Assembly (NCBI GenBank): GCA_951406725.2
Contig: OX597815.1
Span: forward strand, 80,972,001-81,036,000
Length of the DNA stretch: 64,000 nt
Direction of reading: 5' to 3'
Origin: Octopus vulgaris
Lineage: Eukaryota
Shown: piece by piece, positions 53,189 to 53,774 of the stretch
How the letters are laid out: the number at the start of each line of letters is the position of its first letter
Position numbering within the stretch: position 1 is the first letter of the stretch
The notes under the pieces: model-generated
The model's database searches: none
What the model was told of the DNA's origin: nothing
What the model saw: the letters and a program-made list of their open reading frames with translations, nothing else
Translations under genes and position numbers: made by a program

Positions 53189-53768
53189 AGTAAATAAATG
53201 GTACAACGAAGTACCGATATTTACTGGAAAATACCGATCGTAATAAATACGACGCTATTGTATAGCTTCACTGCGTACATAGTAGTAAAGACGTGTGTGT
53301 GTGTGCAACAAACATGAAAAAAATTTGTCTTACCTCTAGGAAGAACATCTGAAAAATGAAAAACCTTGAAACGGATAATGCACGACCGGTTTCAGACTCG
53401 TCAAATACGTTTGACAAAGTAAAATTAATTTGTCTTCATCAGCTGCATATACCTAGACAAAATTTCAAATGTTCCCACATCTATGCCAGTACACTCGTCT
53501 GAACGCCAAAACGTTAACAGAACGAGAACAGTGAAGAAGTTTCAATGAAAATAATGCAATACGAAAGTATTGCTTTCCAGTAAAAGATAGCCCATAAGGG
53601 TAAAATTATACATATAAAAGTAAATAAATGGTACAACGAAGAATCGATATTTACTGGAAAATAGCGATCGTAATAAATATGACGCTATTGTATAGCTTCA
53701 CTGCGTACATTCTAGCAAAGACGTGTGGCTATCTTTTACTGGAAAGCAATACTTTCGTATTGCATTAT

Positions 53769-53774
<6 letters not shown>
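53189..53774 (-). mobile_element. ORF-less hammerhead element with 430-bp partial tandem and 5' inverted segment, in (TA)n; retrozyme or non-autonomous Penelope-like
   Basis: Direct repeats 53189-53297 and 53619-53727; perfect 48-bp inverted copy 53545-53592 versus 53727-53774; (TA)n on both sides. Confidence 0.8.
53378..53448 (-). ncRNA. Type I hammerhead ribozyme with extended stem II
   Basis: Minus strand AUGCAG CUGAUGA AGAC...GUCU GAAA C CG GUC^GUGCAU: intact core, palindromic ACCGGU stem III, one G.G mismatch at the base of stem I. Confidence 0.8.

What the first reader, a model, noticed from the sequence alone, without database searches (positions are those of the whole stretch)
53189..53774. 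Complete hammerhead element: 1.25 x 430-nt unit plus a 48-bp 5' inversion, inserted in (TA)n
Seen: 109-bp direct repeats 430 bp apart, a perfect inverted copy of 53545-53592 at the right end, TA tracts on both sides, no ORF, and a minus-strand hammerhead with a GUC site (cut between 53384 and 53383). Stem II carries an inner hairpin GUCAAA-CGUA-UUUGAC, and an alternative GACAAA/UUUGUC pairing would disrupt stem II. Established: partial tandem plus 5' inversion is the Penelope insertion signature. Inference: a non-autonomous RNA copied more than once around a circular or multimeric template, possibly with a conformational switch on cleavage.
Basis: partly seen in the sequence, partly recalled or inferred. 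Interest (0 to 1): 0.75.

Follow-up and report, generated by a model that had tools for sequence, protein, structure and literature searches.

The report
Decayed Penelope-pasted hammerhead retrozyme copy
This is one worn copy of a scattered, protein-free 430-base jumping repeat with a predicted self-cutting RNA motif (a known kind); the ends of its sister copies show two fixed start points, likely because a Penelope-type enzyme copies the RNA from both cut DNA strands, and the proposed folding switch is an accident of this one copy.

Summary
The anatomy is as described. It is one copy of a dispersed non-coding family (542 exact hits to one 20-mer; 216 loci analysed) with a covarying type I hammerhead. 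Copies have variable 5' ends and two fixed 3' ends on (TA)n, sites A and B, 65 nt apart. In 52 of 54 classifiable inverted insertions one arm starts at A and the other at B. The 48-bp inversion here is a short B arm: the Penelope 'tail at one end' footprint. No copy runs into an RT ORF. Repeats within a locus share rare variants (11 vs 0.4 expected), so one unit was likely copied twice; circle versus linear template is unresolved. 5' ends are modestly enriched at the ribozyme cut (7 vs about 1.7 expected), a hint of cleavage in vivo. The G.G mismatch, inner hairpin and 'switch' helix come from this copy's own mutations (helices in 2 of 158 copies); the family folds a different, covarying hairpin. 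Verdict: new member of a known kind (non-LTR retrozyme / non-autonomous Penelope-like element). This scan reported the two-start footprint before for other families in this genome.

The parts
53120..53186 (.). left (TA)n target tract; overlaps the TA-like 3' end of the element
   Evidence: TATATA within 16 nt of 174 of 199 site-A ends in the family
53177..53727 (-). main arm: fixed 3' end at site A (about 53177-53188), one full unit, then 109 nt of a second pass to a variable 5' end
53189..53618 (-). 430-nt repeat unit (429 nt in the family majority); 16 differing columns from the majority, plus a short TG insertion
53378..53448 (-). type I hammerhead: 6-bp stem I (G.G in this copy), CUGAUGA, 4-bp stem II with a hairpin inserted in loop 2, GAAA, palindromic stem III ACCGGU, predicted cut 53384/53383
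53402..53427 (-). loop-2 hairpin in the family register (CAAA..UACG / CGUA.UUUG); broken in this copy by four substitutions
   Evidence: complete in 2 of 158 copies; pairing probability 0.91 here, 0.0 in majority-type copies
53545..53607 (-). tail sequence between start sites B (53545) and A (about 53607), as it occurs inside the main arm; holds the GCAAUAC/GUAUUGC hairpin (53556-53573)
53220..53230 (-). 11-nt strand predicted to pair with its complement in the tail (53574-53584) across the unit junction, enclosing site A
   Evidence: predicted fold; kept in the sister family with one G.U
53727..53774 (+). inverted arm: starts at fixed site B (53774), truncated after 48 nt inside the tail; shares a rare 3-bp deletion with the main arm
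53775..53802 (.). right (TA)n target tract
   Evidence: TATATA within 16 nt of 68 of 76 site-B ends

Best explanation
This is a mutated copy of a dispersed, ORF-less 429-nt hammerhead repeat whose copies have two fixed 3' ends on (TA)n, and which is likely pasted in trans by a Penelope-like RT/GIY-YIG protein that primes on both nicked target strands. Shown: family, polarity, fixed ends A and B 65 nt apart, variable 5' ends, one A arm plus one B arm in inverted insertions, repeats within a locus alike, covarying hammerhead. Inferred: the enzyme nicks (TA)n on both strands and starts reverse transcription internally at A on one strand and at B on the other, guided by a conserved helix and hairpin at the unit junction; the two cDNAs join at short microhomologies, or one cDNA joins the target directly. 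Inferred with less support: arms longer than one unit come from copying the same unit twice, most likely round a circle formed by hammerhead cleavage and ligation (about 55%), otherwise from an uncleaved multimer or a jump to a sibling RNA. The hammerhead likely cleaves as a dimer through its palindromic stem III; a minority of templates would begin at the cut.
For: Outer ends of 315 arms in 216 distinct loci: 199 at A, 76 at B, 40 elsewhere. 73 of 216 loci have head-to-head arms: 52 A+B, 2 A+A, 0 B+B, 19 unclassifiable; at pair level 53 of 55, p 4e-14 against independence, one locus counted twice. [quoted passage not shown] An autonomous family here (781 aa, RVT_1 + GIY-YIG; at least 93 matches) ends on TA in 29 of 29 ends found in 30 loci, 6 with a tail. 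50 of 69 arms reaching unit position 410 run on at least 15 nt into the next unit. Within-locus repeats agree at 389 of 402 (direct) and 439 of 462 (inverted) diagnostic sites against about 60% for random pairs, and share 11 and 28 rare variant columns against 0.4 and 0.7; the 176 inter-repeat differences are symmetric (86 vs 86) and none recurs in more than 3 loci. Core intact in 145 of 158 copies; compensatory changes in stems I and II within the family and in a sister family. 5' ends at the cut: 7 observed vs 1.05 expected, top of 230 windows; 8 of 262 genome-wide.
Against: No autonomous element sharing DNA sequence with the unit was found among the PLE copies I held, so the helper is inferred from the footprint only. 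The tail is 65 nt, longer than the 30-40 nt reported. Arms seldom pass one unit (7 of 127 3'-selected loci) and only 5 of 216 loci have two hammerheads in one arm, none three: a freely running circle would be expected to give longer arrays. The excess of ends at the cut is small and confounded: ends favour TA/AT microhomology three- to four-fold, 6 of 13 ends near the cut are TA-ambiguous, the window was chosen after seeing the ends, and the genome-wide count is only about twice expectation. 77 of 81 first-pass arms read through the cut. Rare shared variants can be small-lineage variants (the 3-bp deletion is also in L301 and L306) or gene conversion. Cleavage, circles and transcription were not tested.
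Confidence: 0.78

Rival explanations
1. Same element and enzyme, but the template is always linear: an uncleaved read-through multimer or sibling RNAs used in turn by template jumping; no circle is involved.
For: Arrays stop at two units. 3 of 10 arms at risk end at the cut in the second pass, as a linear RNA cut at its upstream ribozyme only would give. In vitro the anole PLE uses uncleaved RNA and does not need the ribozyme (PMC11167929). 46 of 52 B arms run past site A, so two RNA molecules or displacement are needed in any case.
Against: Read-through of long-lived tandem masters should give recurring one-directional differences between the two repeats; none recurs in more than 3 loci. The unit folds far better than shuffles as a circle (z -4.6 to -10.1 for four copies), though no linear fold was run for comparison. 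Stops at the cut could also be pauses at a ligation joint.
Confidence: 0.4
2. The element is only the 3' end (pseudo-LTR) of an ordinary autonomous PLE, truncated before the ORF.
For: Same footprint as PLEs; PLE 3' ends in this genome carry palindromic hammerhead-like motifs; retrozymes are related to pseudo-LTRs in Xenopus (10.64898/2026.07.22.740005).
Against: 50 of 69 arms reaching position 410 continue into the unit's own start and the other 19 end in unrelated flanks; no PLE ORF lies directly upstream of any of 315 arms (nearest same-sense hit 839 nt away); 9 upstream ORFs of 150 aa or more are unrelated to each other and none scored as RVT_1 or GIY-YIG. A sister family is collinear over the whole unit at 68-74%.
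Confidence: 0.06
3. The 48-bp inversion arose by L1-type twin priming at a chance internal site, or by a DNA rearrangement after insertion.
For: Arm joints mostly overlap by 1-6 nt; the two copies of the 48 bp are identical while the direct repeats differ at 7 of 109.
Against: The inverted arm's outer end is the same fixed site B in 76 arms, sits on (TA)n, does not follow the main arm's end, and also occurs as the 3' end of single-arm insertions (9 of 132).
Confidence: 0.04
4. The loop-2 hairpin and the GACAAA/UUUGUC helix form a selected switch that controls cleavage.
For: Both helices can be drawn in this copy; a 5-bp version of the alternative helix is possible in 60 of 158 copies.
Confidence: 0.03

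Closest known systems
Metazoan non-LTR retrozymes (Cervera and de la Pena 2020, PMC7229834, parts 2-3 of 6 and passages read; Li, Clavereau and Pollet 2026, 10.64898/2026.07.22.740005, parts 1-3 of 5 read)
   Same: Small ORF-less unit in the 150-450 bp range, GC under 50%, one type I hammerhead per unit, highly self-paired predicted fold, PLEs in the same genome, PLE mobilisation proposed.
   Different: Mostly 5'-truncated single arms or inverted pairs in (TA)n instead of tandem arrays (at most two ribozymes per arm); a hairpin inserted in loop 2; no parent pseudo-LTR found; circles not shown.
EN+ Penelope-like elements (Craig et al. 2021, PMC8557442, passages read; Frangieh et al. 2024, PMC11167929, parts 1-2 of 4 read)
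   Same: 5' truncation, partial tandem, inverted 5'-truncated copy at the 5' end, optional tail at one end, two start sites, TA or AT-rich target.
   Different: No RT/GIY-YIG ORF; tail 65 nt instead of 30-40 nt; start sites lie at the unit junction, not inside an ORF; a small excess of 5' ends at the ribozyme cut, where Frangieh et al. saw no RNA ends.
Canonical metazoan type I hammerheads with palindromic helix III (Cervera and de la Pena 2014, PMC4209133, parts 1-2 of 4 read; Rfam RF02275 HH9)
   Same: 6-bp helix I, 4-bp helix II, short palindromic helix III suited to dimer cleavage; sub-threshold Rfam HH9 match in a typical copy.
   Different: Loop 2 is enlarged by a 26-nt covarying hairpin; it is not the minimal PLE type with short helix I and long helix II.
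Putatively non-autonomous Chlamys elements such as MRC1 (PMC8557442, passage read)
   Same: Non-autonomous PLE-type elements with pseudo-LTRs and head-to-tail copies.
   Different: Those resemble autonomous partners at the 3' end and their clade is reported to lack canonical hammerheads; no such partner was found here.

Membership tests
Non-LTR retrozyme | type I hammerhead in the repeat unit | tested here: met
   core intact in 145 of 158 copies; covariation in stems I and II; Rfam HH9 below gathering score
Non-LTR retrozyme | small non-coding unit of about 150-450 bp | tested here: met
   429-430 nt; longest internal ORF 49 aa
Non-LTR retrozyme | head-to-tail tandem copies; 'active' = two consecutive units with complete ribozymes (Li et al. 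2026) | tested here: inconclusive
   head-to-tail junction in 50 of 69 long arms; two ribozymes in one arm in 5 of 216 loci, not in this copy
Non-LTR retrozyme | no true LTRs | tested here: met
   the direct repeat has a variable length from locus to locus; PBS and PPT were not searched
Non-LTR retrozyme | highly self-paired RNA | tested here: met
   circular fold z -4.6 to -10.1 against 25 shuffles for each of four copies
Non-LTR retrozyme | self-cleavage and circular RNA in vivo | not testable with these tools
   only indirect: excess of 5' ends at the cut
Autonomous EN+ PLE | RT and GIY-YIG ORF | tested here: not met
PLE-type insertion (works like) | 5' truncation with fixed 3' end and partial tandem | tested here: met
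PLE-type insertion (works like) | inverted 5'-truncated copy and tail at one end only | tested here: met
   52 of 54 classifiable inverted loci are A+B; tail 65 nt, longer than reported
PLE-type insertion (works like) | microsatellite / AT-rich target | tested here: met
   TATATA beside 174 of 199 A ends and 68 of 76 B ends
Non-autonomous derivative of a named PLE family | sequence shared with an autonomous pseudo-LTR | tested here: inconclusive
   none in 30 loci of one active family or in 11 other PLE 3' ends; the first look counted 28,895 PLE candidates, most unexamined

The most novel reading that the evidence does not exclude
The insertion scars of this family record the RNA's life cycle: both target strands are primed from two structure-defined sites on one small RNA circle, and the excess of 5' ends at the ribozyme cut, with repeated C/A switching of the cleaved nucleotide, is a genomic fossil of hammerhead cleavage and religation in the germ line. 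A 429-nt RNA with a conserved junction helix and tail hairpin would then be a minimal trans substrate for Penelope reverse transcriptases.
Probability: 0.3. Interest if true: 0.68.

Novelty: new member of a known kind. Interest (0 to 1): 0.4.

Why it matters
How Penelope-like elements make partial tandems, inversions and tails, and whether their hammerheads cut in vivo, are open questions (PMC8557442, PMC11167929). That PLEs move animal retrozymes rests on co-occurrence and pseudo-LTR similarity (PMC7229834; Li et al. 2026). This family gives counted genomic support: one A arm plus one B arm, repeats alike within a locus, and a hint of templates that begin at the cut. It also names two start sites and two small RNA structures that can be tested with purified PLE protein. 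The class is known and this scan has reported the two-start footprint for several other families in the same genome, so the increment is moderate; this copy itself is decayed.

Tried and rejected
Rfam on the window region: only microsatellite-driven miRNA matches, no hammerhead. Fold covered flanking TA repeats by a coordinate slip and was not used. Conformational switch and inner hairpin: rejected. Parent autonomous element: not found in 30 loci of the 781-aa family, in 11 other PLE 3' ends, or beside 30 of 155 other ACCGGU hammerhead hits. Expression: no RNA holder listed; contigs of three guessed-RNA runs and one other run cover the unit but cannot show transcription, ends or circles; no silent control stretch was laid. 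A pile-up of 5' ends in 20-nt bins at the cut was not visible; it appears only at 3-nt scale. A per-pass error at the cleaved nucleotide was not seen: 0 of 16 within-locus comparisons differ. Papers: no paper held all of Penelope, non-autonomous, tail, inverted, microsatellite, hammerhead; 'retrozyme' with 'cephalopod' gave only Craig et al. 2021; two searches listed no description of this family or of the A+B count, judged from listings. Supplements were not read; those of PMC7229834, PMC8557442 and the Li preprint could list this family. No earlier scan note matched this unit by sequence.

Full report
Observation. The direct repeats differ at 7 of 109 positions; the 48-bp inverted pair is perfect. 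The longest ORF inside the element is 49 aa. Rfam saw no hammerhead in this copy but matched a typical sister copy to Hammerhead_HH9, E 3.6e-5, below the gathering score.

Family. The window lies in a 2.8-Gb animal genome (earlier scan notes call it cephalopod, which I did not test). A DNA search gave 1,979 candidates, 40 scored. Exact motifs gave 171 hits at the ribozyme, 542 near the 3' end and 262 beside the cut. At about 6% divergence (median identity to the majority 94%) that suggests one to two thousand arms; this is my estimate. I mapped 230 fetched loci, 216 distinct, 315 arms. They came from three samples: 30 best hits, 70 of the 171 ribozyme hits, and 130 loci picked by 3'-end motifs (four regions left from the list were included; five listed on C23 were not fetched). 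Eight loci were analysed apart. Below, unit position 1 = window 53189 and the RNA is the minus strand.

Two fixed ends. Outer ends fall at site A (-11; 199 arms) or site B (-76; 76 arms), 40 elsewhere; TATATA lies within 16 nt of 174 of 199 and 68 of 76. Inner ends vary from -56 to 764. Of 132 single-arm loci 115 start at A, 9 at B. Of 73 loci with head-to-head arms, 52 pair A with B, 2 pair A with A, none B with B, and 19 could not be classed. The window copy is an A arm to position 538 plus a B arm that stops at -26. So the 48-bp inversion is a second arm from a fixed site. Craig et al. describe an inverted 5'-truncated copy and a 30-40-bp tail often at one end only (PMC8557442, passages). 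Frangieh et al. show a PLE protein nicking and extending both strands, with two internal starts that bound the tail (PMC11167929, parts 1-2). An autonomous family in this genome (781 aa, RVT_1 and C-terminal GIY-YIG) ends on TA in 29 of 29 ends found, 6 with a tail of about 33 nt. It shares no DNA similarity with the unit. The helper is therefore inferred, not identified.

Non-autonomy. Of 69 arms reaching position 410, 50 continue at least 15 nt into the unit's own start; the other 19 stop in unrelated flanks. PLE protein hits near the loci are separate insertions, the nearest same-sense upstream one 839 nt away. Nine upstream ORFs of 150 aa or more gave one Tc5 domain, one weak zf-RVT and nothing else. 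An older sister family (24 loci) is collinear over the whole unit at 68-74% with similar ends. The unit has thus long moved as a unit.

Ribozyme. In 158 copies (92 of the 216 loci were not needed to span it; many were picked by a ribozyme motif, which inflates conservation of its 3' half) the core is intact in 145 and stem I is perfect in 140. Stem I swaps AUGCAG/CUGCAU for AUGUGG/CCACAU in 7 copies and for AUCUAG/CUAGAU in the sister family; stem II swaps C-G for U-A in 52 and is GAAC/GUUC in the sister family; stem III stays palindromic, ACCGGU or ACCUAGGU. On 33 of 98 distinct family hammerheads plus 9 sister ones, 94.8% of cells pair and 9 of 24 pairs show two-sided changes (relatedness inflates such counts). 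This is the canonical metazoan type I form that cleaves as a dimer (PMC4209133, parts 1-2); dimer cleavage here is inferred. The cleaved nucleotide is C in 75 and A in 81 of 158, other letters in 2.

The proposed switch. The window copy differs from the majority at 16 columns, six of them in the ribozyme; contigs from four runs show the majority letter at the G.G site and the hairpin-closing site. G.G occurs in 1 of 157 copies; the 6-bp inner hairpin and the 6-bp alternative helix each in 2 of 158. The switch is a by-product of decay.

One unit copied twice. Direct repeats within a locus agree at 389 of 402 diagnostic sites and inverted arms at 439 of 462, against about 60% for random partners; shared rare variant columns number 11 and 28 against 0.4 and 0.7 (one locally triplicated locus left out; a 3-bp deletion counts as three columns and some loci give several comparisons). 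In the window the two passes share a rare substitution and both arms share a 3-bp deletion seen in only 2 of 139 other loci. Differences between direct repeats are symmetric and do not recur, as expected if repeats were identical at insertion. A circle explains this simply and was proposed in print (PMC4209133; PMC7229834). Jumps between sibling RNAs or fresh homogeneous multimers explain it too. Against a free-running circle, arms seldom pass one unit: 7 of 127 3'-selected loci, at most two ribozymes per arm.

5' ends at the cut. Ends prefer TA/AT microhomology (0.007-0.013 per base against 0.003). From those rates I calculate about 1.7 expected over 189-193, p about 0.002. Genome-wide, 8 of 262 copies stop there, against 3-4 expected by my arithmetic, p about 0.02-0.07; three overlap the first sample and six are TA-ambiguous. 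I read this as a modest hint that some templates begin at, or stall at, the cut. Most arms read through. Frangieh et al. found no RNA ends at the cut of the anole element.

Signals for the enzyme. An 11-bp helix across the unit junction encloses site A and a 7-bp hairpin lies in the tail before B (predicted). Both are kept in the sister family, with one G.U pair and a different loop. Their role is inferred.

Placement. It works like a PLE insertion and fits the non-LTR retrozyme definition on structure; long tandem arrays are absent, and cleavage and circles are untested. It is not an autonomous PLE. My reading was set before the look-ups of earlier notes. Those notes report the same two-start footprint for 359-364 and 485-495-nt families in this genome; none matched this unit by sequence. 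They are not support. Verdict: new member of a known kind, interest 0.4.

Noticed in passing
L101-L125 (e.g. L109:1671-1752 minus): Older sister family, 68-74% identical over the whole unit, 1,291 candidates; hammerhead with ACCUAGGU stem III and a CCGAUGA core in 4 of 9 copies aligned.
   Followed up: partly
L186-L213; G000:C6:118635946 and 118636393: A third hammerhead family (stem II GAAA/UUUC, GUA cut, ACCGGU), the bulk of 155 pattern hits, two hits 447 bp apart, also ending on (TA)n; no similarity to this unit.
   Followed up: partly
L073:2921-5263; L126-L155: Very young autonomous PLE family with many open 781-aa frames, an optional tail of about 33 nt, and a hammerhead-like motif with the variant core UUGAUAA and palindrome ACAUGU.
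   Followed up: partly
unit positions 192 and 243 (window 53384 and 53435, minus strand): The cleaved nucleotide (C/A) and the first stem II base are the two most homoplastic of 33 polymorphic sites (14 and 21 changes in leave-one-out trees of 119 copies; next 13), neither at CpG. Cause unknown; no within-locus differences.
   Followed up: partly
L010 flank, L301 flank: 3' ends of other PLE families carry GAAACCGGUA hammerhead-like motifs with altered 5' cores.
   Followed up: no
L084: A whole inverted insertion appears three times within 3 kb, one copy with an extra partial unit: local duplication after insertion.
   Followed up: no
runs X16-X19: The family is also held by runs labelled organisms C and D; X16 was laid and covers the unit.
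   Followed up: partly
window 9092-10497, 17009-17554, 49450-50346: Frames that look like a LINE ORF2 end, a mariner transposase and a LINE RT fragment (labels recalled from motifs, not scanned).
   Followed up: no
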